DNA of 64,000 nucleotides, from the IMG/VR virus record IMGVR_UViG_2585427757_000006, one strand, 5' to 3'. Made by a program: the position numbers and the translations under genes. Positions 27,561 to 64,000 of the stretch are shown here, one piece after another. Under the pieces are notes generated by a model. That model searched no databases and was not told the DNA's origin. It was given only the letters and a program-made list of their open reading frames with translations. The stretch is from a virus (Duplodnaviria; Heunggongvirae; Uroviricota; Caudoviricetes). How positions within the stretch are numbered: position 1 is the first letter of the stretch; each line of letters starts with the position of its first letter.

Positions 27561-30500
27561 TCACAGACGGCCAATTCTTACTCGTAGGACGTTGTTATCG
27601 TCATAAACGTCAATCCGCTGACCATTTATAACCAATCGCCCATTGCCGCCGCTATTACCGTTGATCTCCAGCGTTCCATTTTTGCCGAACCGCCATCCAG
27701 ATCTACCGCTAACAAAATTGGTAGATTGCAGATCGCCTACTTTTGCATTGGTGATTGTGCCATCCTTGATATACGCTCCATTCATATAGGCGATACTGTT
27801 TTCGATAACAAATGGCGTTGTGATCTTCCCGTTAACAGAGTTGACCAAACCAAACCTGTCCGCCTGAACCAAAAACTGAGATAGCCCAGTGGTGTCAATA
27901 CCAAGCGCAATACCGGCAACATACTTCTGCCCTCCGCTCGTTGAAGTCTCCATTTTCAACGTCCACGCGGTTGACACTTTTTTGTTGGTATCAGCAATAG
28001 CTGTTGCCTGCTGTTGAATTGTCGCGGTATTTCCATTCACCTCTGCTTTCAGAGTATCGATTCGCCCACTCAGAGCATTATCTGCCTGCGTTCTCGCTTT
28101 CGTTTCAGTTGTGACCGCCGCGGAAATGTTGGCTGCCGTTTGAGACTCTAAGTTTGTGATTTGAGTCGCCAATGCAGCATCTTGCTCTGTACGCGTTTTC
28201 GTTTCGGTTGCTACAGCCGCTTTAATATCCTCTTTGTATTGAGAGGTCAGCTTGGTGATCTGAGACGACAACGCCGAGTCAGCATCAGTTCGAGCCTGCG
28301 TTTCAACTGCAACGGCCGCACTAATATCTTTCGCTGTCTGTGCTTTTAAACTTGAAACCTCTTTTGTTAAAGCGGTATCACCATCTGCACGAGCCGTTGT
28401 TTCTCTGGCAAGAGACGCCTTGAGATCATTAGCTTTTGCTGTAAGAGACGTAATCTGGGTAGACAATGCACTATCGGCATCAGTCCTTGCTTTTGTCTCT
28501 ACAGCAACCGCTGCGGCAATATCAGTTCCGGTTTGTGCTCGCAGGCTGTTAATTTCTCGTGAGAGCGCCTGGTCAGCACTTGCTCTGGCCTCCTGCTCCT
28601 GAGTGATGGCAGCGGATATATCACCGTCAACCTTTGACTGAAGCTGGTTTATTTGTTTGGCTAACGCAGAGTCCCCGCTTGCTCGGGCCTCCTGCTCACT
28701 ACGTATTGCAGCAGAAATATCATCATCAACCTTTGCCTGAAGTTGGGTGATCTGGCTTGCCAGAGCCGAATCTTCCGTTACTCGGGCTTCTTGCTCTTCC
28801 TTAATAGCTGCGACGATATCGTTGCTTACTTTCGACTCAAGCTGAGTGATCTGTGTCGTCAGAGCTTCATCGGCAGATGTACGAGCCTCCTGCTCTGTAC
28901 TAATCGCCGCGCTGATATCTCCTTCAAACTTAGATTGCAGCTGAGTGACACGCTTTGCCAACGCTTCATCGCCATCGGCACGAGCGGTGGACTCTTCCAG
29001 AATACTGGCCTTAATGTCTTCGCCAATTTCTACGCGAATTTCCTCAACCTTCGTGGCCATTGCAGACATATCATCAGCAAAGGTTTTCTGTGTTGTTGCG
29101 ATCTTCGCGTTATTGACCATCTGCTTGTGCTGGTCTTCATCTTGACGAAGAGCCAGGTCAATATTTGTTTTGGCCAAAGCCTCAATGTTCGTAGTCAGTT
29201 CTGCACTGGCACGATCGACCTCTGCAACCGTCTTTTTCATTTCTTCAACGGCAGCGGAGCTTTCCTCTACCGTTGACTGCAACACTTCCAGTTGTTTAGC
29301 GTTTGCAGCATCCCCTTCAACACGAGCCTCGCTTTCCTTAGCAATAAGAGCCGCCGCTTCGTCTCTTGCAGCCTTTATTGCCTCGACTGTATTAGCGAGA
29401 GCTTTATCGTGTTCAGATACGGTGTTTTCGATTTCAACAATTGCAGCATCAGTAGCATCAATTTTTTCAAACGCTTCATTGACCTTGTCGATCGTTGCCG
29501 AAACCTCACCTTTAAGCTCGGTTTGTGCGTTCTCCAAAGCATCGCTACGCTCGTTGAATTTTATTTCAAAACCCGCGAGGTTATCGCTGAACTGCTTATC
29601 TAATTCAGCTATATCTTCCTTAACGTCGTTTACCGACCCCTCCAAAGATTCGACGCTCTGGTTGATATGCTCATTTAACTCGTCAACTGCTTCTTGAGAG
29701 ACTTTGCTGTTGATGTCCTCAAGCAGAGCCTGACCAAGCTCGGAAGATGTAATTTTGCCAGTCAGGAACGACAGTACATCGCGAGTTGTCGCCTCTGTTC
29801 CCAAGTTTGAGTTCGGAGGACTTAACATACCTCGCTTGTTCGATGCTCGAACCCAGTAATACCACGTTTCGCTATCCCCAAGACCAGCATGTGTAAAGGT
29901 GGTGCTTGCAGACTCTGCGATCAGTTTCGCCGTATCCAGATTGTTGGTCTGGGATGCGTAAACATTAATGTGATCAAGGTCTACCGAATCTGGATTAACC
30001 CAATTCAGTATCACATTACGATAGTCTCCAACGGCCGTTAATGACGTTGGGGCATCTGGCGGTGTCATTGTGCCCAACACCTGATAAACGGTACTGATAA
30101 TCTCTGTTTTTTTACCGTTGAATGAAACCGCATACAGCTGGAAGTCGTAGCGTCCATTCTCCGCGACATTAACGATTTCGTATTGCTCTTCGGTTACACG
30201 CGCCGATTGCCAGTTCGATACATTGTTTTCATCAGAACGTCGCCAACTGATCCAATACTCTGGAGATTTCCCTTCCCATGTTGCAGTCAGTTTTACTGAC
30301 AGGTTGCCCGGGCTTGAGAGGTAAGTCCCTTCAGTGATTTGCAAATTAGACGGCTTGGAGTAAGTCGGGTCCAATACCGTCGTATTCTGCGGGATAAGCG
30401 TTGCACCATTGTCGATCGCCTCATATTTAGACGGATTGTTTTCAACAGCGGTGATGTCAAAGCTACCCGACGTTTCCCCCTGAGCGATGTTAACGATGCG

Positions 30501-49929: not shown

Positions 49930-49986
49930 CCTGCTTCCGTATATATTTAATAAGTTACTTATTATTTATATATACAGATGCAGGTC
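49930..49986. repeat. 57-bp imperfect palindromic element related to 17329-17383, core taagttacttatt
   Basis: Left arm cctgcttccgtatatat, right arm tatatacagatgcaggtc (2 mismatches to the reverse complement of the 17329-17383 left arm). Confidence 0.7.
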
Positions 49987-50008: not shown

Positions 50009-50275
50009 TTACATCACCAGTAACTTCGCTTTGGCTCGACCTAAAGTGGTTAACCCAAGAGTTCGGCGGTGATAGCGATTGTCACTGCGTTGGCGCGTAT
50101 GCCCTTTCTCCACCAGCCCCTTTTTTATCAGAGCGCGAATTGAGAACTGGATACTTTGCTTGGTTGTCTTGTACGGCAAAACTTCAAGCAATTCGTCCAG
50201 GTCAAGTAGATGACCTCGCTCATAACCGAGATTGAGCGTTTTGATGATGTCCTTTTGTTTATCGGTTAACGTCAT
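50009..50275 (-). CDS. small winged-helix DNA-binding protein candidate
   Basis: 88-aa ORF; segment KQSIQFSIRALIKKGLVEK HTH-like. Confidence 0.4.
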   Translation of the reverse strand: MTLTDKQKDIIKTLNLGYERGHLLDLDELLEVLPYKTTKQSIQFSIRALIKKGLVEKGHTRQRSDNRYHRRTLGLTTLGRAKAKLLVM

Positions 50276-51184: not shown

Positions 51185-51435
51185 CTGCGCTCGATATTGG
51201 CATTGATGAAATCCAGGCGAAGAGACTCCATCGCCCCTACCATGACATACGGGCGCCCGCCGTTATGCCAGCAATCAAGAACACTGCCGTCGTTGTTGAT
51301 CATCAACAGCGCCAGACTCTGGCTTTTTCCTTCTCTGGCATGCTGAAGTGCTTCTTCCAGCAGGCGGATGACTTCCACGTTGTTGTTATCAGTCTCTTTC
51401 GATGGCTTCAGCTCTACGATCTTCAAATCAGGCAT
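51181..51435 (-). CDS. hypothetical protein
   Basis: 84-aa ORF, overlapping start/stop with neighbours. Confidence 0.4.
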   Translation of the reverse strand: MPDLKIVELKPSKETDNNNVEVIRLLEEALQHAREGKSQSLALLMINNDGSVLDCWHNGGRPYVMVGAMESLRLDFINANIERR

Positions 51436-52066
51436 ATTCCACCTTCACGCGTTCTTTGTAGTGCTTGGTGATCTGCATATCCGGGCGCAGCGCGTTCTTC
51501 AGGTCTTCGTGAGTCGTCGCCACCATTACCGTCGCACCAACCTTTCGAGCGGCACGCTGGAGGTTAGACGCCACAACCTGAGCGGTTACACGGTCTAGAA
51601 CAGCGCCGAACTCGTCAGCAGCCCATACTTTAGCGCCTGACTCAATCAGTTTGGCAATCTTGAGACGATATTTCTGGCCGTCTGACATTTCAGAAGGCTT
51701 GCGAACAAACAGATATGCATCGTTCAGACCAGCCATAGATAACAACCCAAGCGCATCACTGGTCGTTTTGCCCAACTGATCGATGACGTTAACCTCATTA
51801 TCGAAGGTAAAATCATCGATGGAGGCTACAGACAGCCCTTCATCCTTCATCTGTCGTTGCAACTCGCGCAGCACAACGGATTTGCCGGAACCGGATTGGC
51901 CGGTGATGTACACCACATCGCCCTGCTTCACTTCCAGCTCCAGATTGTCGTAAAGCGTCCACTCTTTTTCGTCCAGGCCAAGCCCGAACGACTCAGCGAT
52001 TTCCAACGTGCGCGTGGTTTTATTTACGCGTGTCTGAAACGATACGTTGATGATGTATTTGCTCAT
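51428..52066 (-). CDS. ABC-type ATPase (no transmembrane domain)
   Basis: Walker A GQSGSGKS, ABC signature-like MSDGQ, Walker B VWAADEF, H-loop TTHED. Confidence 0.65.
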   Translation of the reverse strand: MSKYIINVSFQTRVNKTTRTLEIAESFGLGLDEKEWTLYDNLELEVKQGDVVYITGQSGSGKSVVLRELQRQMKDEGLSVASIDDFTFDNEVNVIDQLGKTTSDALGLLSMAGLNDAYLFVRKPSEMSDGQKYRLKIAKLIESGAKVWAADEFGAVLDRVTAQVVASNLQRAARKVGATVMVATTHEDLKNALRPDMQITKHYKERVKVEYA

Positions 52067-52764
52067 GCAGCCATCTCCCCGGAAGAGATCTTCTCCGCAT
52101 ATGCCACAAATGCGTCTACCCCGCTTTCTCCCGTCATTTCTTCCATGTGGGCAAGCAAATCACCAACAACAATGGCAGAGCCAGCAGGAAGCGTTTTAAA
52201 GCCCAATACGTCGACAACACGTACTTCTTCCGCTGCAACTTCACGACTGATCTCGGTGTGTTCATCCTTCTGTCGTTTAGTTTCTTCGCCAAGATCGATA
52301 ACTAGCGAGTCGGTGTCCATTTCTTCTGTCATACTGCCAACGAGAACATTCAACTCACGCTCTTCGAAGCCGAAAACCTCGATATCGTCCAGAACAAGCG
52401 ACTCAAGCTCTTTCTGTAGCTTAATTGCATCGTAATCAATGCTGGCAAGTCGGTTATCTTCAAGGCGCTTTGCACGTACCTCGTCATCACTCAGATCATC
52501 ACGAACAATAACCGGTACGCGCTCAAGTCCAGCAAAAATTGCAGCCTCACGGCGGCCGTGGCCAGTAATAATTACGTCGTTCTTATCGACCGTAATTGGC
52601 TGGTCAAATCCACGCTTTTTAATGGCTGCGGCCAGATCTCTGATCTGCTGTTCATCATGCTTTTTGGCATTCATCTCATAGGGAATAAGATCTGCCGGGT
52701 CGCGATATACGATTTCAAACTTTTTGGTCATTACATACGCTCCTTGTAGTAGTCGACCAGCCAC
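52063..52764 (-). CDS. ParB/Srx-domain protein
   Basis: ParB N-terminal-domain motif ITGHGRREAAIFAGLERVPV. Confidence 0.7.
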   Translation of the reverse strand: MAGRLLQGAYVMTKKFEIVYRDPADLIPYEMNAKKHDEQQIRDLAAAIKKRGFDQPITVDKNDVIITGHGRREAAIFAGLERVPVIVRDDLSDDEVRAKRLEDNRLASIDYDAIKLQKELESLVLDDIEVFGFEERELNVLVGSMTEEMDTDSLVIDLGEETKRQKDEHTEISREVAAEEVRVVDVLGFKTLPAGSAIVVGDLLAHMEEMTGESGVDAFVAYAEKISSGEMAA

Positions 52765-53429
52765 ACCAGAGCCTCACCAGCGTTCTCCATTTCATTACCG
52801 GTGTTAATAGCCTGCTCTTTGATGATGTTTTTTATGGTTTCTGCAACACGATCTGACGCATCGAAAGTTACTTTGAAGCGCATGGTCTGATGTTCCGCAC
52901 CCACACGTTCGGTTTTCTCTCGTTTGTCGGTATCGACAGGCTCATCACTACCACGAGACAACGCCTCCAGTGCTTCAAGGTCGATTGCCGCCTCTTTTGC
53001 TAAAACCATCGAGATTTCGTCGTCATACGGAGCGATTTCAGACAGTTGATAGTCAAGTTCTGACTGAATTTCTTCAATGAAGCGTTGCAATGCGATTTGG
53101 TCGTCTTCACCGTATCGCTCGTTGTCCACCAGTGACATCTGTTTAGCTACGACATCGCTAATTTTGCCCACAGAAAGCACCGGAACCGTTGAAATTCCTT
53201 GCTCAATAGCAGCACGCCAGCGATGTTCACCGCCGAGGATTTCAAAAAATCCATCTTCAAGTTCACGAGCCAAAATTGGCTTAAAAAAGCCCAATTTTTC
53301 GATAGAACCTTTCAGTTTTTCAAAATTCTGCGCACCAACCGAATTGGTGTTCCAGGTATTCGGGCGAAGGTTGGCAACATCAACCTGCAAAATCGTGATT
53401 TTTACATCCATTTTATTGCTACAATCCAC
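52731..53429 (-). CDS. ParB/Srx-domain protein (second copy)
   Basis: Motif ILGGEHRWRAAIEQGISTVPV; acidic C-terminal half. Confidence 0.7.
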   Translation of the reverse strand: MDCSNKMDVKITILQVDVANLRPNTWNTNSVGAQNFEKLKGSIEKLGFFKPILARELEDGFFEILGGEHRWRAAIEQGISTVPVLSVGKISDVVAKQMSLVDNERYGEDDQIALQRFIEEIQSELDYQLSEIAPYDDEISMVLAKEAAIDLEALEALSRGSDEPVDTDKREKTERVGAEHQTMRFKVTFDASDRVAETIKNIIKEQAINTGNEMENAGEALVWLVDYYKERM

Positions 53430-55402: not shown

Positions 55403-55825
55403 ATGAAATACTCGCTTCTCCCTCTACTAACGTTACCAGTGTTGATGCTTACCGCGTGCCAATCACGCCCAATATCAATCCATGACGCCAAACCAGCACC
55501 GCAGGCCAAAGTGTTCAAGTATCAAAGCGCAGCGCCAGCTACGTTGGTGGTAATGAGAGACACAGGTTTTGTAGGAGCTGGATGTGATGCTTCCATTTTC
55601 ATCAACGGCGAAACTATCGCAAAACTGGCTACAGGCGAAAAAGCGACTTTCCATTTAAATGCCGGAGAATTAATTGTGGGTGCATCTCTTGAAGGTGCAG
55701 GTTTATGTGCTCTAAACCCCGCTCGTCAAGAGCGAGAAACGACTCTGAAGAATGGAGACACAAAAGCATTCAGGGTGTTCACCAGCAATTCTGGTGACAT
55801 CGACATTCTGCCAACAACTCTGTGA
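55403..55825 (+). CDS. lipoprotein
   Basis: Signal peptide plus lipobox MKYSLLPLLTLPVLMLTACQ (internal Met of track ORF 55361-55825). Confidence 0.5.
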   Translation: MKYSLLPLLTLPVLMLTACQSRPISIHDAKPAPQAKVFKYQSAAPATLVVMRDTGFVGAGCDASIFINGETIAKLATGEKATFHLNAGELIVGASLEGAGLCALNPARQERETTLKNGDTKAFRVFTSNSGDIDILPTTL

Positions 55826-55829
55826 TGAC

Positions 55830-56354
55830 ATGACAACCAAAGATATTACCTACGGTATCCAAGCTGAACTCTGGCCGCGAGATTACACTAACGTTGAAAA
55901 ACTACTGATGTTCTGGCGCAGAGAACAAATTCCTGTAAGGGTCACTCTCGAAGATGGCCAGGCGTTTTGCATGTACGTTTATGGCCTCATGCCATCTCGT
56001 AACAAAGTTGACCTTTGCCCAGCCCCTTTTGACAAAGAAAATCGTATAAGGCTCCCACTTGAACGCATTAGTACAATTGAATCAGGTGTGGTTGACAGTA
56101 TCGCTCACGATTTCAAAGGTCGACTAACAGTTCACCCTGATTATGTCGATAATCGGCCATCACGCCGCGATTTTTTTGCAATTTGCAACCAAGCCTACAA
56201 AGCAAACAAATCTATAAGGGTGTACATGGCGGATGGCCGTGAAATTGAGGGGGTGTCAGCAGGCGCAGATGCTTGTCAGGTTACACTACGTGTCGAGAAC
56301 GGTAGAAAAATAGTTGTTTTGTTCGATTGGGTTGAACGAATTTTGCCTTTTTGA
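55830..56354 (+). CDS. hypothetical protein
   Basis: Internal ATG (MTTKDITYG...) of track ORF 55752-56354, just after stop of lipoprotein gene. Confidence 0.45.
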   Translation: MTTKDITYGIQAELWPRDYTNVEKLLMFWRREQIPVRVTLEDGQAFCMYVYGLMPSRNKVDLCPAPFDKENRIRLPLERISTIESGVVDSIAHDFKGRLTVHPDYVDNRPSRRDFFAICNQAYKANKSIRVYMADGREIEGVSAGADACQVTLRVENGRKIVVLFDWVERILPF

Positions 56355-56949: not shown

Positions 56950-57600
56950 ATGGCTAACATTATCATTTCTAAAAAATCCATCGTTGAAGCTGCTTCCATT
57001 GTATCCGATGAACTGCGCGAAAAAGCAGATCTGGCAACTCAAACATATAATGAACATTATAAAAATGGTACGCACACTAAAGCAGACAAAGCAAATATGC
57101 AAGCTGCGACCACGAAACTTGCTTACTTCATCAACAACGTCGTAAACGCAGTAGAAGACGAAAAATTATGCTCTGTTTTCTACTATGCGATTAAAGCAAG
57201 CAAACAAGCGCCAGAAGTATTTTTTCGTGATGCAATGACTAATAGTTATTCTCTGGAAAAACTGGTTTATCTGGTTAAATCAATTAAATCTGGCAAATGC
57301 GTTTATTCCATCGCTGATATGTCAGGATCTCGTGTATTCGCTTTAATCGATATGATTAACGACGAGATCGACACGTTCACCAATGGCGCTGTTTTCGATT
57401 TAATGAATGAAGCTAAAAAAGCGTGTGAAATTAAATTGGACGCTGGCTATACTCAAGCCAACCAGTTGATCAATCTTTGCGAACGTCTTGGACTTGTTGA
57501 AAAAGTCAAAGGAGCTGGGAGCGCGAAAGCTGGTACTCAGCAATATCGCTTCATTAAAAATGATTTCTACAATTATTTGGCTGATGCTTTCAAAGCGTAA
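56950..57600 (+). CDS. hypothetical protein (moron-like cassette)
   Basis: 216-aa ORF with own promoter and downstream hairpin. Confidence 0.55.
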   Translation: MANIIISKKSIVEAASIVSDELREKADLATQTYNEHYKNGTHTKADKANMQAATTKLAYFINNVVNAVEDEKLCSVFYYAIKASKQAPEVFFRDAMTNSYSLEKLVYLVKSIKSGKCVYSIADMSGSRVFALIDMINDEIDTFTNGAVFDLMNEAKKACEIKLDAGYTQANQLINLCERLGLVEKVKGAGSAKAGTQQYRFIKNDFYNYLADAFKA

Positions 57601-57873: not shown

Positions 57874-58104
57874 ATGTTTGTTCTTATCGCTGGCGTTAAC
57901 GTCCATAATGAATATTATGTTAATCGCATCGCTGGGATCGCTGGTTACGCTGGGCGCGCAGTCGAGCTTATAGATGAAACGACGCGCAAAATTGACTTAT
58001 TGAGCGACCAGGAGCGAAAAAAAGCAGACGTGAACGACGCTGATATATTTTTAATGTTAAAAGCGTTTGTAGAAATGGGATTTAAAATCAGTTTACACAA
58101 ATAA
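57874..58104 (+). CDS. hypothetical small protein
   Basis: 76-aa ORF preceded by AAGGAG. Confidence 0.4.
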   Translation: MFVLIAGVNVHNEYYVNRIAGIAGYAGRAVELIDETTRKIDLLSDQERKKADVNDADIFLMLKAFVEMGFKISLHK

Positions 58105-58110
58105 AATCGA

Positions 58111-58139
58111 GCGCCCCCCATGGGCGCTTTTTTTTTTTT
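58111..58139 (+). terminator. strong intrinsic terminator
   Basis: gcgcccccca-tgggcgc followed by a 12-nt T-run. Confidence 0.7.
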
Positions 58140-58156
58140 CCATACTTCCACCATAA

Positions 58157-58181
58157 CGCGCCAATGATGGCGCTTTTTTTA
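58157..58181 (+). terminator. second tandem intrinsic terminator
   Basis: gcgcca-atga-tggcgc followed by ttttttt. Confidence 0.6.
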
Positions 58182-58595
58182 TTGTCTTTGACTCAAGCCA
58201 ACAACATAAAAATAAGCGCCAAAATAACGCCATAGACGCGCTTTTATATCCTTACCAGTACATACCCATTACTTAACACATTAACGCGCTTAAATCGCGT
58301 TATATTGCGTTATGGTGTATGGTTAATCATTGGCTTTTATTCTTGCTTTATGATCCGCGTTTATTTGTCGGCGCGGATCGGCATTTTGTTTTGTTCCGTA
58401 TCCGCTCGCGTATTATGTGCGCGTGATTTTTCACATAATCACACCACTTAATCACGTATGTGATTATGCTACGAAAGAAATCTGGATGTCTCAGGCGACG
58501 AAAGTCATCATAATTTTCCCCGCTCACCTGTCCGACAACCGCTGGTTGGATTCCACCAGCTTCCCGATGTTTTTTCTACACAAAGGCGAATGCAG

Positions 58596-58708
58596 CCGTT
58601 TCCCGAAAAAATCCTGGCCGTTCCCCGTCGGCTCATGAATACGTTCCTCGCCGTTTCTGAAAATTTCCCTGCGGCAGCTGGTGGCTATAGAGAAAGGGCC
58701 GTTTCTGG
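58596..58708. repeat. iteron-like array A: about 5 direct copies of CCGTT(T)CC(C)G motif at about 22-24 bp spacing
   Basis: Copies at about 58596, 58618, 58642, 58651, 58699; about 35 bp near-identical to array B. Confidence 0.7.
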
Positions 58709-58720
58709 CCCTCTTCTCAG

Positions 58721-59203
58721 TTACACGCCATCAAGGATGTGGATGCGGTTGCTTGCGTATACATTCAGCATAAAGTTAGCGCAAAACAGTTTCCATGTAT
58801 CAACGCCAGCGGTATACGTAATGTTTTTGCATTTAATTGCATTGTTGGCGATCCGCATCCCCTGCGATACTGCTTCATCGTCGGAAAATTTGAACGACGA
58901 TTGAGTTTTAATCCAGACAGAAATCTGCGTAGCGAACTCAATCAGCTTGGACTGGCAGAATCGCCCGGAGCGCACCGGAAAGACGAACGTTCCGAATCCA
59001 GAATTTACCACATATGCTTTCTCAAATACCCGCGAGTAACGACGATTGCCAATGATGTCGCGTGCAATAATGCATTTTTCTTGTGCTGACAGTTCTACCG
59101 TCTCATTGTCGCGCCATGCACCAAGTACTCGTTTTTCAATGTCAGAGAACGTTACAGCGATATTGCCATGTGCGGGTGCGTTTACAGTAGCGATAAAATT
59201 CAT
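58721..59203 (-). CDS. hypothetical protein
   Basis: 160-aa ORF; motif-II element about 22 bp upstream. Confidence 0.45.
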   Translation of the reverse strand: MNFIATVNAPAHGNIAVTFSDIEKRVLGAWRDNETVELSAQEKCIIARDIIGNRRYSRVFEKAYVVNSGFGTFVFPVRSGRFCQSKLIEFATQISVWIKTQSSFKFSDDEAVSQGMRIANNAIKCKNITYTAGVDTWKLFCANFMLNVYASNRIHILDGV

Positions 59204-59407
59204 GATTAATTCCTTATCGTAAATAACAAATTGTTTTCTTGTTGGTGTTAATTATCGTTGTACGAATAAGGCGTCAAAGTGGAAAGTTGCGGTAGCCGGA
59301 CGGGAACAGGTGGGTTTGTCGGTTGCCTGGAGGTAAGAGGTTGGTGTTATTAGCCTGAGGGAAACAGGATGGTCATTTAAGACCACCAATGCTGGTGGCC
59401 TTAATAA

Positions 59408-59551
59408 TTATCGCCCGATTACGCTAAGGATCTTTTCCTCAACTGATTTGTTGTTGCGACTAAACTGCCTTGCGTATCTGATGACAGAAGAGGCGTTTTG
59501 CTTTCTGACCATCTCGGCTCTTTCCTTCAGGCGTTTCTTGAAATCGCCCAT
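59408..59551 (-). CDS. putative small basic protein (MGDFKKRLKERAEMVRKQ...)
   Basis: Own translation, 47 aa, below track cutoff. Confidence 0.3.
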   Translation of the reverse strand: MGDFKKRLKERAEMVRKQNASSVIRYARQFSRNNKSVEEKILSVIGR

Positions 59552-59553
59552 AT

Positions 59554-59970
59554 TTACCACCAGGCGCAGAAGGTCAGTCTGTTATTGTGAAAGTCGTGGT
59601 TCTTAATCAGATCTTCCACAAGCTCTTTCAACTGCCCCACATCATGCCAGTAACCTTCGTCGTACTCCTGACTGCCGAAGAAAAAACCTTCCCGAGTAGG
59701 CAAGTACTCTTCGCAATTGCTTTCGTTTATGTGCATCAAATGAGCTTTCAGAAGACAAATGTCATTCATCGTTAATTCTAAAAGCTCACAATTTTCGACT
59801 TCACCTACGTTGCGCTCCATCCACCCAACGAGCGCATTGAACTTACGGAAGTAAGCAACCTGCTTTCTGGATGCCTCGTTATTCAGATCGTTTTTAGGCT
59901 GTGTCTCGATATAGATATCAAGTCCCATGATGGTTTCCTTATTAACTTGCTTCAGTAAAATCATTTTCAC
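59554..59970 (-). CDS. hypothetical protein
   Basis: 138-aa ORF; possible internal start at MGLDIYIE. Confidence 0.45.
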   Translation of the reverse strand: MKMILLKQVNKETIMGLDIYIETQPKNDLNNEASRKQVAYFRKFNALVGWMERNVGEVENCELLELTMNDICLLKAHLMHINESNCEEYLPTREGFFFGSQEYDEGYWHDVGQLKELVEDLIKNHDFHNNRLTFCAWW

Positions 59971-60012
59971 AAATCAGATAAGGCAGAAAACAAATTGTTA
60001 TCGGGCTTAATA

Positions 60013-60037
60013 AAATGGCGCGGTTTACGCGCCATTT
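60013..60037 (-). terminator. intrinsic terminator for minus-strand gene 60046-60441
   Basis: aaatggcgcg-gttta-cgcgccattt hairpin with T-rich tail on minus strand. Confidence 0.5.
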
Positions 60038-60045
60038 AAAGAGGA

Positions 60046-60441
60046 TTAAGCGAATACGCTTTCAGGGATTAAGGTGTCGGCAGGAATGCCAGAGGTAATG
60101 CGCAGGCCGTACTGACCAATCCAGGTAGTGTTGGTATTCAGGCTGGAGGCGAATACGGTGTTAACCATATTCATCATGGTTTCAAACACCTCTTCATCAA
60201 CCTGGCGGAAGTAGTTCTCGATTTTCAGCAGCAGCGGGTCAGTTGCATCGAGAATGGACTGGTATTGAGTCGCGTACTCGCCGCCGGAGGCATCACCTTT
60301 ACGCACGATCGTACTGGCCTGGACTTCGGCACCAGTTTCGGTGTTGTACGTAACAACGGTAATTTTTGCCACATTCTTACCTTCGGCGGTTTCAGAGGCA
60401 TAGTAAACATCAACTGTCAGTTTTTCGCGTTTAACGGTCAT
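60046..60441 (-). CDS. hypothetical protein
   Basis: 131-aa ORF; motif-I element about 45 bp upstream. Confidence 0.5.
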   Translation of the reverse strand: MTVKREKLTVDVYYASETAEGKNVAKITVVTYNTETGAEVQASTIVRKGDASGGEYATQYQSILDATDPLLLKIENYFRQVDEEVFETMMNMVNTVFASSLNTNTTWIGQYGLRITSGIPADTLIPESVFA

Positions 60442-60504
60442 TTCACTCTCCGTAGTGTATTGGTTATTTTTATATTCTATAATCGTAAGTATTTACTTAC
60501 AATA

Positions 60505-60532
60505 CAAAAAGCCCCGTAAGGATGGCGGGGCT
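60505..60532 (-). terminator. intrinsic terminator for minus-strand gene 60567-60878
   Basis: Minus strand reads AGCCCCGCCATCCTTACGGGGCTTTTTGTATT. Confidence 0.65.
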
Positions 60533-60566
60533 GTCGTACTGTCGACTAATTGCCACTTGCACATTA

Positions 60567-60878
60567 TCAGGCTATTGCCATCACTGATGCTCTCTGAATT
60601 TCTTGCTGGGCCACGCGGTTAACTTCCATCAAGGCCAGTTCGAGCTGATGTTCCGGCCACATTCTTTGAAACGCCATCCAGCCTTTTCCACGCTGGCGAC
60701 GAACATTCATTACATAACGAGTAAAGGTGTTTTTATCGAAAGACACCGCTGTTTCACGGAACAGACGAATAGAGGTTCCATTGGCAACGATGTCCAGCAA
60801 AGTTAATTGAGCAACCAGCGCAGGCTTCTCTTTTCTCTTCTGGTCTTTGTCCAGACCAAGAACCAATGATTTTTTCAT
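60567..60878 (-). CDS. hypothetical basic protein
   Basis: Internal ATG (MKKSLVLGLDKDQ...) preceded by GGAG; track ORF extends to 60926. Confidence 0.45.
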   Translation of the reverse strand: MKKSLVLGLDKDQKRKEKPALVAQLTLLDIVANGTSIRLFRETAVSFDKNTFTRYVMNVRRQRGKGWMAFQRMWPEHQLELALMEVNRVAQQEIQRASVMAIA

Positions 60879-61032
60879 CACAACTCCGTAAACAACTTGT
60901 TTTCTCAATGGCGTAAATAATACCAATAAGAAAACGGCTACAAAGCATAATGATCAGGTGCATGAGCGATATGCAGGTTCTTCCCTGCGGCTACAGATTA
61001 AGTTAAGCCAGCAATGCTGGCTTTGGTTGGGG

Positions 61033-61383
61033 TTACTCGAATACTTCAAGAAACTCCTGAACGTCCCAATGCTGGACGAGGTGAAGATAGACCTTAGAAA
61101 TCACGTCATTTTCGCTATCGCATGTGAAGTAGTACTTCTGGCTGCGGTTGTATGTGTCCACACAAAATTCGCTCATATCCATAAAGTCAGCATCTTCACC
61201 CATGTCGCAAATCATCAAAGCAGGTGCGTCATCACGAGTCATCAGCTCAAGCACCCACCGCGAATTGATCAGAGTGGAAGACCAACCTTCTAACTCATAA
61301 AACTGATCAAACTCTTTTTGAGTTAATTTCTTGATTTGGTTGATGTCGATATTTGCAAACATAAAGCAATCCTTAAACAACAT
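61033..61383 (-). CDS. hypothetical acidic protein
   Basis: 116-aa ORF; start codon embedded in motif-II element. Confidence 0.45.
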   Translation of the reverse strand: MLFKDCFMFANIDINQIKKLTQKEFDQFYELEGWSSTLINSRWVLELMTRDDAPALMICDMGEDADFMDMSEFCVDTYNRSQKYYFTCDSENDVISKVYLHLVQHWDVQEFLEVFE

Positions 61384-61726
61384 GTTTTCTTATTGGTGTT
61401 ATTATCGCAATAACGCATAGGCGAAAAAGGATTTTATTCCGGTGAATGTGGTTTTGGCAGTGAGTTTTCAGGTTCAGTACCGAGTACACTTTTTACATTA
61501 TTCTGATTTAGTAGCCGAAGGTGGCTGGTGGGCAGAATAATCATCTCCCCGAAAACCTACTGAAATCGATTGTGACCCGTTGGCTGTCTGGCACAATTAC
61601 GCTGTAGCTGGGCATTCAGAGGGAATCCAGCGGTAAGTAAGTTCGCCTGCACGTGAGCGCCTCTCTTCTTCCCGCACATTACAGGTGGGTAGCCGCAACT
61701 CTCCCTCTCGCTATACCGGTACGCCA

Positions 61727-61857
61727 CCGTTCCTGAACCGGCACCGAGCCTTTTCCCGAAATCCACACAGGCAACTCGACCGTTTCCCTGAAAATCCCCA
61801 GCCGTTCCCCGAAGGCAACCCAGCCGTTTCTGTAGCGGGATGCAGCCTTTTCCCTGT
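61727..61857. repeat. iteron-like array B: 6 direct copies of CCGTT(T)CC(C)(T)G motif, mostly 22-bp spacing
   Basis: Copies at 61727, 61749, 61780, 61802, 61824, 61846. Confidence 0.75.
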
Positions 61858-61986
61858 ATGGACCGAAGGCTGACCGTAGGGGTGTTGTCAGCGCCAATGA
61901 TATAAGACAGTAATTCACCATTTGGATTGTCCGCTCCACCCAACATGTTGTTTCCTTAAGGTTCCTACACCACAAAGGGAACACTC

Positions 61987-63953
<1,967 letters not shown>

Positions 63954-64000
63954 TGACCAATAGCGGACATTAAAAATGGCGAAAAACGGCCAATAATCTT

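What the first reader, a model, noticed from the sequence alone, without database searches (positions are those of the whole stretch)
58596..61857. Two iteron-like direct-repeat arrays in the same orientation bracket a 3-kb block of small genes
Array A (58596-58708) and array B (61727-61857) each carry 5-6 copies of a CCGTT(T)CC(C)G motif. Array B has strict 22-bp (two helical turns) periodicity. The arrays share a near-identical ~35-bp stretch (ccgtttccc(t)gaaaa(a)atcc..gccgttccccg). They bracket five or six minus-strand genes of unknown function. This looks like a plasmid/phage origin or incompatibility iteron set, an operator array, or directly repeated recombination sites that could excise the block. 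None of these is explained by the gene annotation.
Basis: seen in the sequence. Interest (0 to 1): 0.75.

Follow-up and report, generated by a model that had tools for sequence, protein, structure and literature searches.

The report
Conserved paired iteron-like arrays, phage-plasmid
Two clusters of a 10-bp motif, spaced two DNA turns apart, are real and are kept in every SSU5/pHCM2-type phage-plasmid examined; they are almost certainly docking sites for one DNA-binding protein, but neither that protein nor the job of the sites (my best guess is a second, lytic-cycle replication element) has been identified.

Summary
The motif GCCGTTTCC(C) occurs three times in array A (58596, 58618, 58651) and six times in array B (61727-61846). 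All copies are on the + strand, 22 bp apart or 31-34 bp apart, so they face the same side of the helix.

The window is an E. coli SSU5-like phage-plasmid. Both arrays belong to its backbone:
- IS-free relatives carry them.
- ISEc62 (IS21 family) starts only at about 61885-61887.

Both arrays keep their position and orientation in Escherichia, Klebsiella, Salmonella SSU5, Enterobacter, Citrobacter, Cronobacter and one distant lineage. Y. pestis pMT1 keeps array A only. The 10-bp core stays fixed while the spacers drift, and there is no third cluster in a complete relative.

What they are not:
- Not the plasmid RepA iterons, which have a different motif 35 kb away.
- Not a lambda-type cosB.
- Not excision sites: 0 of 225 plasmids show a footprint.
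- Not coding, and not a stable RNA structure.

Best reading, inferred: same-face binding arrays for one phage-plasmid protein. The candidate is the adjacent 216-aa winged-helix protein. They may act as a RepA-independent, probably lytic, replication element, with array B next to a conserved 0.8-kb G+T-skewed non-coding stretch. A centromere or a looping operator remain live rivals.

The parts
58593..58660 (+). Array A: three strong copies of GCCGTTTCC(C) starting at 58596, 58618 and 58651 (spacing 22 and 33 bp)
   Evidence: 20.1, 18.1 and 20.1 bits. Conserved with spacing 22 and 33/34 in all relatives examined (alignment A1).
58690..58718 (.). Hairpin just after the stop codon of the 160-aa gene. 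Its loop holds the weak fourth 'copy' (58699).
   Evidence: Fold. The stem changes on both sides between E. coli and Klebsiella in alignment A1. The weight-matrix score on the + strand is below 9 bits.
61724..61856 (+). Array B: six copies at 61727, 61749, 61780, 61802, 61824 and 61846 (spacing 22, 31, 22, 22, 22)
   Evidence: 13.1 to 21.8 bits. Conserved with 4-6 copies in relatives. Phage PhiR41_1 lacks exactly one 22-nt unit (alignment A2).
61857..61886 (+). Start of a family-wide conserved element to the right of array B (GACCGTAGGGGTG..TTACGGGGGAT..CTTGAAT..ACTTATAC). It is cut here by the IS. In intact relatives about 0.8 kb of G+T-skewed non-coding DNA follows.
   Evidence: Alignment A4. 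L001 sequence and skew. The skew is conserved in 8 lineages.
61887..64000 (+). ISEc62 (IS21 family; istA 61987-63159, istB 63156-63953). It is an insertion and is not part of the feature.
   Evidence: Homology to IS-free relatives stops at 61886. Identical IS copies on unrelated plasmids start to match at 61884-61886.
58721..61383 (-). Bracketed block of six small minus-strand ORFs (160, 50, 124, 131, 103 and 116 aa), all of unknown function
   Evidence: Five of the six match PHROGs families of unknown function (the 50-aa ORF matches none); there are no Pfam or NCBIfam families.
56950..57600 (+). Gene for a 216-aa protein with a C-terminal winged-helix domain. It is the candidate binder of the arrays (an inference).
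58553..58560 (-). Chi site (GCTGGTGG on the minus strand) on the left flank of array A
   Evidence: The nearest Chi to the left of array A is on the minus strand in 9 of 9 loci that have one.
58677..58684 (+). Chi site on the right flank of array A
   Evidence: the nearest Chi to the right is on the + strand in 9 of 9 loci. It is conserved in alignment A1, except PhiR41_1, which reads GCTGATGG.
61524..61531 (+). Intergenic Chi site 200 bp to the left of array B
   Evidence: It is conserved in Klebsiella (alignment A2).

Best explanation
The two arrays are clusters of binding sites for one sequence-specific DNA-binding protein encoded by the phage-plasmid. Each site is an asymmetric core of about 10 bp, GCCGTTTCCC. 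Neighbouring sites lie two or three helical turns apart, so all face the same side of the DNA and could hold a cooperative protein array.

The pair is a fixed cis-acting part of the SSU5/pHCM2-type backbone. Its most likely role is a replication element that does not depend on the plasmid initiator RepA, probably the origin used in the lytic cycle. In this model array B, the conserved element beside it and the adjacent 0.8-kb G+T-skewed non-coding stretch form the core. Array A, 3.1 kb away, is a distal partner reached by DNA looping, as in the P4 ori/crr pair or the R6K origins. The best candidate binder is the 216-aa winged-helix protein encoded 1 kb to the left of array A.

Shown: the arrays, their conservation, their exclusivity in the genome, and what they are not. 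Inferred: protein binding, the identity of the binder, and the replication role.
For: - The clustering is far beyond chance.
- There are only two clusters in a whole 108-kb relative.
- Position, orientation and 22-bp phasing are kept across seven genera-level lineages. This includes one lineage whose neighbouring 160-aa protein is only 33% identical. Information content is 1.0-1.8 bits in the 10-bp core and 0.1-0.4 bits in the spacers.
- Copy number changes by whole units: a 22-nt deletion in PhiR41_1.
- A 22-bp period and frame-breaking indels rule out coding. RNA folds are unremarkable, z = +0.5 to -1.9.
- Spacing of 22 bp on asymmetric direct repeats is the classic geometry of initiator iterons (established knowledge for F, P1, RK2 and R6K). 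In other phages found here, CCGTTTCC arrays with a 22-bp period sit inside O-like initiator genes (L045, L057, L052).
- Array B adjoins a conserved element and about 0.8 kb of non-coding DNA. That stretch has GC skew +0.2 to +0.55 and a T-over-A excess in all 8 lineages, and is about 68% identical between genera.
- The genome encodes its own helicase, primase, Pol III alpha, a T4 gp32-like SSB, UvsY and UvsW, but no lytic origin is annotated.
- The 216-aa neighbour has a winged-helix domain and an invariant recognition helix. It is at or below background in a lysogen transcriptome, which fits a lytic-cycle role.
- The Chi sites nearest array A point towards it from both sides in 9 of 9 loci. 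This is the arrangement expected around a bidirectional origin.
Against: - No recognisable initiator gene lies next to either array.
- The helicase and primase genes are about 40 kb away.
- There is no AT-rich unwinding element, and DnaA boxes are not enriched: one box 160 bp from array A and 4 in the window against 6.8 expected.
- Only 10 bp per unit is conserved, whereas classical iterons conserve 17-22 bp.
- The similarity to iterons of other phages was selected by the search pattern itself. Those initiators have no homologue here.
- The Chi pattern could be a by-product of Chi-containing intergenic hairpins.
- The ISEc62 insertion between array B and the skewed stretch is tolerated, at least for life as a plasmid.
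Confidence: 0.33

Rival explanations
1. Centromere-like partition sites. The arrays would be bound by the adaptor of the plasmid's ParA system (the 119-aa, probably ribbon-helix-helix, protein at 18206-18565) or by another adaptor. They would then serve segregation of the low-copy prophage plasmid, as with the multiple parS arrays of pSM19035 or parC1/parC2 of pB171.
For: - Arrays of direct repeats are typical of type Ib, II and III centromeres (established knowledge).
- The ParA partner gives a weak match to a ribbon-helix-helix family, E = 2e-4, below the family cut-off.
- It is 91-93% conserved across genera, which would fit an invariant motif.
- No obvious repeat array lies next to parA.
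- TubR, a centromere-binding protein, is among the best fold matches of the 216-aa protein.
- pMT1, which lives as a plasmid, keeps array A.
Against: - The arrays lie about 39 kb from parA, whereas type Ib centromeres normally sit at the par operon.
- A different conserved palindrome, AAACAAnTTGTTT, sits just upstream of parA and is the more natural operator.
- pMT1 keeps array A, yet no homologue of the 119-aa protein was found in Yersinia plasmids.
- Known ribbon-helix-helix centromeres use contiguous 4-11-bp repeats, not 10-bp cores every 22 bp.
- The 216-aa winged-helix protein is not expressed in lysogens.
Confidence: 0.2
2. Operator or insulator arrays. A regulator bound at A and B would loop out the 3.1-kb block, or block transcription through it. 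This would switch the accessory small genes on or off. It resembles lambda OL/OR, where three operators on each side, 2.4 kb apart, bracket a few genes.
For: - The arrays bracket the same gene cluster in every lineage, although the gene content inside varies.
- Array B lies between the upstream leader and the first gene, and array A lies right after the last gene's hairpin.
- Two promoter-like sites on the minus strand lie just to the left of array A.
- Some genes of the block are expressed in lysogens: CYRAN_109 and CYRAN_111.
Against: - The sites are asymmetric direct repeats, unlike the palindromic operators of dimeric repressors.
- No convincing promoter overlaps either array.
- Each gene in the block already carries its own conserved upstream element, and that element also precedes terS and parA.
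- Genes of the same kind continue beyond array B.
Confidence: 0.2
3. Packaging recognition sites (pac or cosB-like) for the small terminase subunit.
For: The lambda cosB sites R3, R2 and R1 contain CGTTTCC, which is the heart of this motif (sequence read). That these are the gpNu1 sites is established knowledge. Arrays of terminase-binding repeats are known in lambda, SPP1 and P1.
Against: - The arrays are 9-12 kb from terS and terL.
- TerS shows no similarity to Nu1.
- TerL belongs to Terminase_6N/Terminase_3, not to lambda GpA.
- All sites point one way, whereas lambda R2 is inverted.
- There are two arrays 3 kb apart.
- pMT1 keeps array A.
Confidence: 0.05
4. RNA-level repeats. The arrays would be transcribed as part of minus-strand mRNAs, giving GGGAAACGGC repeats that act as a multi-site platform or sponge for an RNA-binding protein, in the manner of CsrB. 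A candidate binder would be the nearby FljA-like protein.
For: - Both arrays lie in the leader or trailer of leftward transcription units.
- A homologue of the FljA translational repressor is encoded 2.2 kb away.
- The minus strand of array B folds slightly better than shuffled sequence, z = -1.9.
Against: - There is no Rfam match.
- The predicted helix of array B rests on an inverted repeat that SSU5 lacks.
- Helical phasing of 22 and 31-34 bp is a property of DNA, not of RNA.
- Array A lies beyond the hairpin that follows the last gene.
Confidence: 0.05
5. Directly repeated recombination sites that excise or exchange the block; or terminal repeats of the IS21-family element; or a chance cluster.
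For: The arrays are in the same orientation and share a 37-nt stretch at 78% identity. An IS21-family element lies 30 bp from array B.
Against: - A synthetic recombinant junction finds 0 of 225 plasmids with one contiguous match.
- pMT1 lacks array B through a larger rearrangement, not a clean footprint.
- IS-free relatives carry both arrays, and ISEc62 copies elsewhere match only from 61884-61886 onwards.
- Chance is excluded.
Confidence: 0.02

Closest known systems
Iteron arrays of theta replicons (F oriS/incC, P1 oriR/incA, RK2 oriV, R6K gamma with distal alpha/beta origins)
   Same: Asymmetric direct repeats phased at about 22 bp. There are two clusters in the same orientation, a few kb apart. 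Copy number varies by whole units.
   Different: - Only a 10-bp core is conserved.
- No rep gene lies between or beside the arrays.
- The plasmid's own RepA has different iterons 35 kb away.
- No DnaA-box or AT-rich module was detected.
Phage P4 ori / crr (two clusters of the same octamer 4.5 kb apart, bound by the winged-helix domain of the alpha protein)
   Same: A short core repeated in two clusters kb apart on a phage-plasmid, with a winged-helix protein as candidate binder.
   Different: - The candidate binder is a 216-aa protein without primase or helicase domains.
- It shows no sequence relationship to the alpha protein.
- Replication function is untested.
- The comparison with P4 rests on my own knowledge, not on a tool result.
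Lambda-type origins inside the O gene (found here as GCCGTTTCCATTCGGC x5 at 22 bp in O-like genes of lambdoid prophages, L045/L057)
   Same: The same CCGTTTCC octamer and the same 22-bp period.
   Different: - Those arrays lie inside the initiator's own reading frame, whereas these are intergenic.
- The O-like protein has no homologue in this genome.
- The match was selected by the search pattern.
Plasmid centromeres made of direct repeats (tubC/TubR, parC/ParR, parH/ParG, pSM19035 parS1-3)
   Same: Clusters of direct repeats, sometimes split into two or three arrays. TubR-like winged-helix fold hits for the neighbouring protein.
   Different: - The arrays are not next to the par genes.
- The cores are spaced, not contiguous.
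- There is no TubZ or ParM.
- The ParA operon has a different candidate operator.
Lambda cosB R1-R3 sites (gpNu1 binding)
   Same: They share the heptamer CGTTTCC.
   Different: Different terminase families, not adjacent to the terminase genes, uniform orientation.

Membership tests
Iteron-regulated plasmid origin (Rep-iteron replicon) | Tandem direct repeats at about 22-bp phase | tested here: met
   Spacings are 22 (and 31-34) bp, conserved across lineages. Only 10 of the 22 bp are conserved.
Iteron-regulated plasmid origin (Rep-iteron replicon) | An adjacent rep gene whose product binds the repeats | tested here: not met
   Neighbouring ORFs match no Rep family in Pfam, NCBIfam or PHROGs. 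RepA is about 35 kb away and has CTCTCTATAGTGGATA iterons (PMC6735626).
Iteron-regulated plasmid origin (Rep-iteron replicon) | DnaA boxes and an AT-rich unwinding element beside the iterons | tested here: inconclusive
   There is one TTWTNCACA box at 58427. The window holds 4 boxes against 6.8 expected. No AT-rich tract is seen; instead a G+T-skewed stretch lies to the right of array B.
Iteron-regulated plasmid origin (Rep-iteron replicon) | Supports autonomous replication or exerts incompatibility | not testable with these tools
   This needs a cloning and replication assay.
IS21-family terminal repeat arrays | The repeats lie inside the IS ends and travel with the IS | tested here: not met
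   IS-free relatives have both arrays. Other ISEc62 copies match only from 61884-61886 onwards.
Lambda-type cosB | Next to cosN and terS, bound by a Nu1-type small terminase together with a GpA-type large terminase | tested here: not met
   The arrays are 9-12 kb from terS. There is no Nu1 similarity. TerL is of the Terminase_6N/Terminase_3 type.
Type I/II/III plasmid centromere | Located at the par operon and bound by its adaptor protein | tested here: not met
   parA and the 119-aa gene lie at 18.2-19.2 kb. No copy of the motif is found there. Binding itself is not testable here.
Site-specific or homologous excision repeats | Natural genomes with a single hybrid array and both flanks intact | tested here: not met
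   0 of 225 plasmids match a synthetic A/B junction in one place.
Two-part origin of the P4 ori/crr type | The same short iteron in two clusters kb apart, both bound by the initiator and both needed in cis | tested here: inconclusive
   The geometry is met. The binder and the cis requirement cannot be tested here.

The most novel reading that the evidence does not exclude
Array B, its conserved flank and the 0.8-kb G+T-skewed non-coding stretch, working with array A, are the so far unmapped lytic origin of SSU5/pHCM2-type phage-plasmids.

In this reading the origin is fired by a phage-plasmid winged-helix protein that is silent in lysogens. It would work by a T4-like route in which a transcript (R-loop) or a recombination intermediate primes synthesis. 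That would explain three things: the strand-skewed stretch, the UvsW/UvsY/gp32-like gene set, and the Chi sites that guard array A from both sides.
Probability: 0.15. Interest if true: 0.65.

Novelty: new member of a known kind. Interest (0 to 1): 0.45.

Why it matters
SSU5/pHCM2/pMT1-type phage-plasmids are common in clinical Escherichia, Klebsiella, Salmonella and Enterobacter, and some carry resistance genes. About 800 plasmid records in the collection hold the gene next to array A.

Their plasmid replicon is known. I found no description of their lytic origin, centromere or packaging site in the searchable literature. A pair of cis elements kept unchanged across genera is a concrete, clonable handle on one of these missing functions. 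It is also a possible target for incompatibility-based curing, or a marker for typing.

Tried and rejected
- **Tandem Repeats Finder** finds nothing at the arrays, because the spacers are too divergent. Motif and weight-matrix scans were needed instead.
- **Rfam** gives nothing on the window region or on the intact relative. **RNA folding** of both strands of both arrays is unremarkable.
- **Promoter and terminator scan**: no promoter at or beside array B, and only weak minus-strand sites to the left of array A. I tried to read a promoter in the conserved element to the right of array B by eye and found no convincing -35/-10 pair.
- **Small ORFs of the block and their neighbours**: no Pfam or NCBIfam family and no sequence hits to solved structures.
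- **Lambda cosB lead** (shared CGTTTCC): rejected on terminase family and location.
- **O-like initiators of other phages with the same octamer**: no homologue here.
- **L080**, a lambda-like contig with ParB_N genes and an 11-bp CCGTTTCC array, looked like a link to the ParB_N proteins. The array is simply intergenic and the ParB_N genes are IbrB or methylase fusions.
- **Cumulative GC skew** of the whole genome follows the coding strand and does not locate an origin.
- **Chi polarity as an origin or terminus locator**: the genome-wide switch points (about 104-3 kb and 37-47 kb in Cyrano coordinates) do not coincide with the arrays. A flip at array B is not seen in the E. coli lineages.
- **Excision footprint search**: negative.
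- **Literature**: nothing on SSU5-type termini or lytic origin.
- **The afdb50 fold library** was not available.


Full report
**What the window is.** The 4 kb around the finding is 98% identical over window 58000-61886 to about 185 E. coli and Shigella plasmids of 95-115 kb, and to phages Cyrano, CMS-2020a and PhiR41_1. These are SSU5-like phage-plasmids (PMC9928086). Annotated relatives place the region between a UvsW-type helicase with two ParB_N proteins and the terminase genes on one side, and metG/apbC on the other.

**The IS is an insertion.** Homology to IS-free relatives ends at 61886. From about 61885-61887 the window holds ISEc62, an IS21-family element. Identical copies on unrelated conjugative plasmids start to match at window 61884-61886. 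The arrays are therefore backbone DNA and not IS ends.

**The observation.**
- The degenerate motif CCKTTYCY has 16 hits in 64 kb, which is no more than chance overall. Ten of them lie in the two intervals, all on the + strand.
- Random placement gives 4 or more hits in 130 bp in 5 of 100,000 trials.
- A weight matrix from 52 sites of seven genomes has information only in GCCGTTTCCC (1.0-1.8 bits per position). The spacers carry 0.1-0.4 bits.
- In the window, + strand matrix scores of 13-22 bits occur only at 58596, 58618, 58651 (array A) and 61727, 61749, 61780, 61802, 61824, 61846 (array B). The next best + strand hit is 12.7 bits; a minus-strand hit of 13.7 bits at 58698 lies in the hairpin arm.
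- Array A therefore has three good copies. The 'copy' at 58699 is the loop of the hairpin that follows the 160-aa gene.
- Spacings are 22 and 33 in A, and 22, 31, 22, 22, 22 in B. These are two or three helical turns, so all sites face one side of the helix.
- The 37-nt shared stretch is confirmed at 78% identity.
- A complete relative has no third cluster.

**Conservation.**
- Both arrays occur in the same place, order and orientation in Klebsiella, Salmonella phage SSU5, Enterobacter, Citrobacter and Cronobacter. They also occur in a distant Klebsiella lineage whose adjacent 160-aa protein is only 33% identical.
- Y. pestis pMT1 keeps array A only.
- Dozens of viral contigs repeat the same patterns: A as 22/33-34, and B as 22/31/22/22/22 or 22/22/22.
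- In the alignments the core is invariant, while the spacers and outer flanks drop to 50-60% identity.
- PhiR41_1 lacks exactly one 22-nt unit. That deletion, and the 22-bp period itself, are incompatible with a conserved reading frame across array B. The ORF 61557-61946 also has no PHROG family.
- RNA folding gives no support for a structured RNA, and Rfam finds nothing.
- The simplest reading is a set of protein-binding sites on DNA.

**What the arrays are not.**
- **Not the RepA iterons.** In Cyrano, repA lies about 35 kb away and is flanked by some 20 copies of an unrelated CTCTCTATAGTGGATA-type repeat at 21-22-bp spacing. This agrees with published iterons beside repA in the Klebsiella relatives (PMC6735626).
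- **Not excision sites.** A synthetic A/B recombinant junction finds no plasmid with one contiguous match, 0 of 225.
- **Not lambda-type cosB.** Lambda R1-R3 do contain CGTTTCC. But TerS is unrelated to Nu1, TerL is of the Terminase_6N/Terminase_3 type, and the arrays are 9-12 kb from the terminase genes.
- **Not at the par operon.** parA (18565-19233) and its 119-aa partner have no copy of the motif nearby. A different palindrome sits upstream of parA.

**Surroundings that bear on function.**
- To the right of array B, all lineages share a conserved element followed by about 0.8 kb of non-coding DNA. That DNA is strongly strand-skewed (G and T on the + strand) and about 68% identical between genera. 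In this window ISEc62 separates it from array B.
- Its putative recognition helix (YTQ.NQL) is invariant across the family. In the LF82 lysogen transcriptome it is at or below background.
- The six ORFs between the arrays have no known function.
- The Chi site nearest array A is on the minus strand to its left and on the + strand to its right in all nine loci that have such sites.

**Mechanism.** Asymmetric direct repeats in 22-bp phase are the geometry of initiator iterons in F, P1, RK2 and R6K (established knowledge). Two clusters of one short core, kb apart, recall P4 ori/crr and the distal origins of R6K. In other phages retrieved here, 22-bp CCGTTTCC arrays lie inside O-like initiator genes. 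That retrieval was biased by the search pattern, and those proteins have no homologue here.

The genome encodes a full replication and recombination set, but no lytic origin is annotated. I therefore favour a RepA-independent, probably lytic, replication element, with confidence about 0.33. I am much more confident, about 0.85, in the narrower claim that the arrays are conserved protein-binding arrays.

A centromere (0.2) and a looping operator or insulator for the bracketed block (0.2) remain live alternatives. Packaging, RNA-level and recombination readings are unlikely.

**Novelty.** I found no description of these arrays in the searchable literature. In form they are a new member of a known kind, namely iteron-like arrays. 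The unusual points are the short core, the absence of an adjacent initiator gene, and the pairing around a gene block.

Noticed in passing
window, whole (for example 9589, 18962, 31141, 47243, 50110 on the minus strand; 54820, 58677, 59391, 61524 on the + strand): Chi (GCTGGTGG) is about 9-fold enriched: 14 sites against 1.6 expected. It is also strand-polarised. Nine of the ten sites up to 50.1 kb are on the minus strand, and sites from 54.8 kb onwards are mostly on the + strand. In complete Cyrano there are 24 sites, with polarity switches near the terminase genes and near 37-47 kb. Several sites form the stems of intergenic hairpins.
   Followed up: partly
window 16450, 19269, 49854, 49879, 59224, 59988, 60890, 61375 (also L001 13870-13935): A 13-bp palindrome, AAACAAnTTGTTT, has 9 matches against 0.6 expected. 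It lies just upstream of parA, terS and each small gene of the block, inside a conserved element of about 35 nt. It looks like a family-wide operator or leader element with an unknown binder.
   Followed up: partly
L001 12000-12800 (intact relative; in the window this DNA lies beyond the IS): About 0.8 kb of non-coding DNA with extreme strand skew (GC skew up to +0.55, AT skew down to -0.6) and degenerate 82-90-nt repeats (GTAATGGCA...). The feature is conserved in all 8 lineages.
   Followed up: partly
window 59280-59345; L001 12454-12515: A 31-nt unit, CGGTAGCC..AGAGGTKGGT, is repeated in tandem upstream of the 160-aa gene and again inside the skewed stretch. It cross-matches between genera.
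   Followed up: no
window 61887-64000: ISEc62 (IS21 family; istA, istB) is inserted 30 bp to the right of array B, inside a family-wide conserved element. Relatives carry other IS elements (IS5075, IS5, IS1541) in the same neighbourhood.
   Followed up: yes
window 55752-56354 (+): A homologue of FljA, the 'repressor of phase-1 flagellin' (Pfam E = 2.5e-84), with a weak Hfq-like tail. It is conserved in the whole family. FljA is an RNA-binding translational repressor, so it may act on the conserved leaders.
   Followed up: no
window 51428-53429 (-): Two ParB_N-domain proteins and an ABC-type ATPase lie just upstream of the terminase operon. The first ParB_N protein is 67% identical even in the distant lineage. 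By eye, its C-terminus (RFKVTF, then helix, then helix) looks like a ribbon-helix-helix.
   Followed up: partly
window 18206-18565 (-): The 119-aa partner of ParA, annotated in Cyrano as a RelE/ParE toxin, gives a weak ribbon-helix-helix family hit instead (aCcr1, E = 2e-4). This suggests a type Ib partition adaptor. It was not found in Yersinia pMT1-type plasmids.
   Followed up: partly
window 50009-50275 (-): An 88-aa protein with weak Sta1/Lrs14-type HTH-regulator matches (E 0.0025 and 0.0042; winged helix by my reading) is encoded immediately upstream of terS. An AT-rich inverted repeat (49940-49985) lies between the two genes.
   Followed up: no
L045 4880-5000; L057 about 7000-7300; L052 4798-4860: Unrelated phages carry CCGTTTCC arrays at 22-bp spacing inside O-like or initiator reading frames. 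This is the classic 'origin inside the initiator gene' layout.
   Followed up: partly
window 28579-28796: A 99-bp tandem repeat (2.2 copies, 76% matches) lies in the structural-gene part of the window.
   Followed up: no
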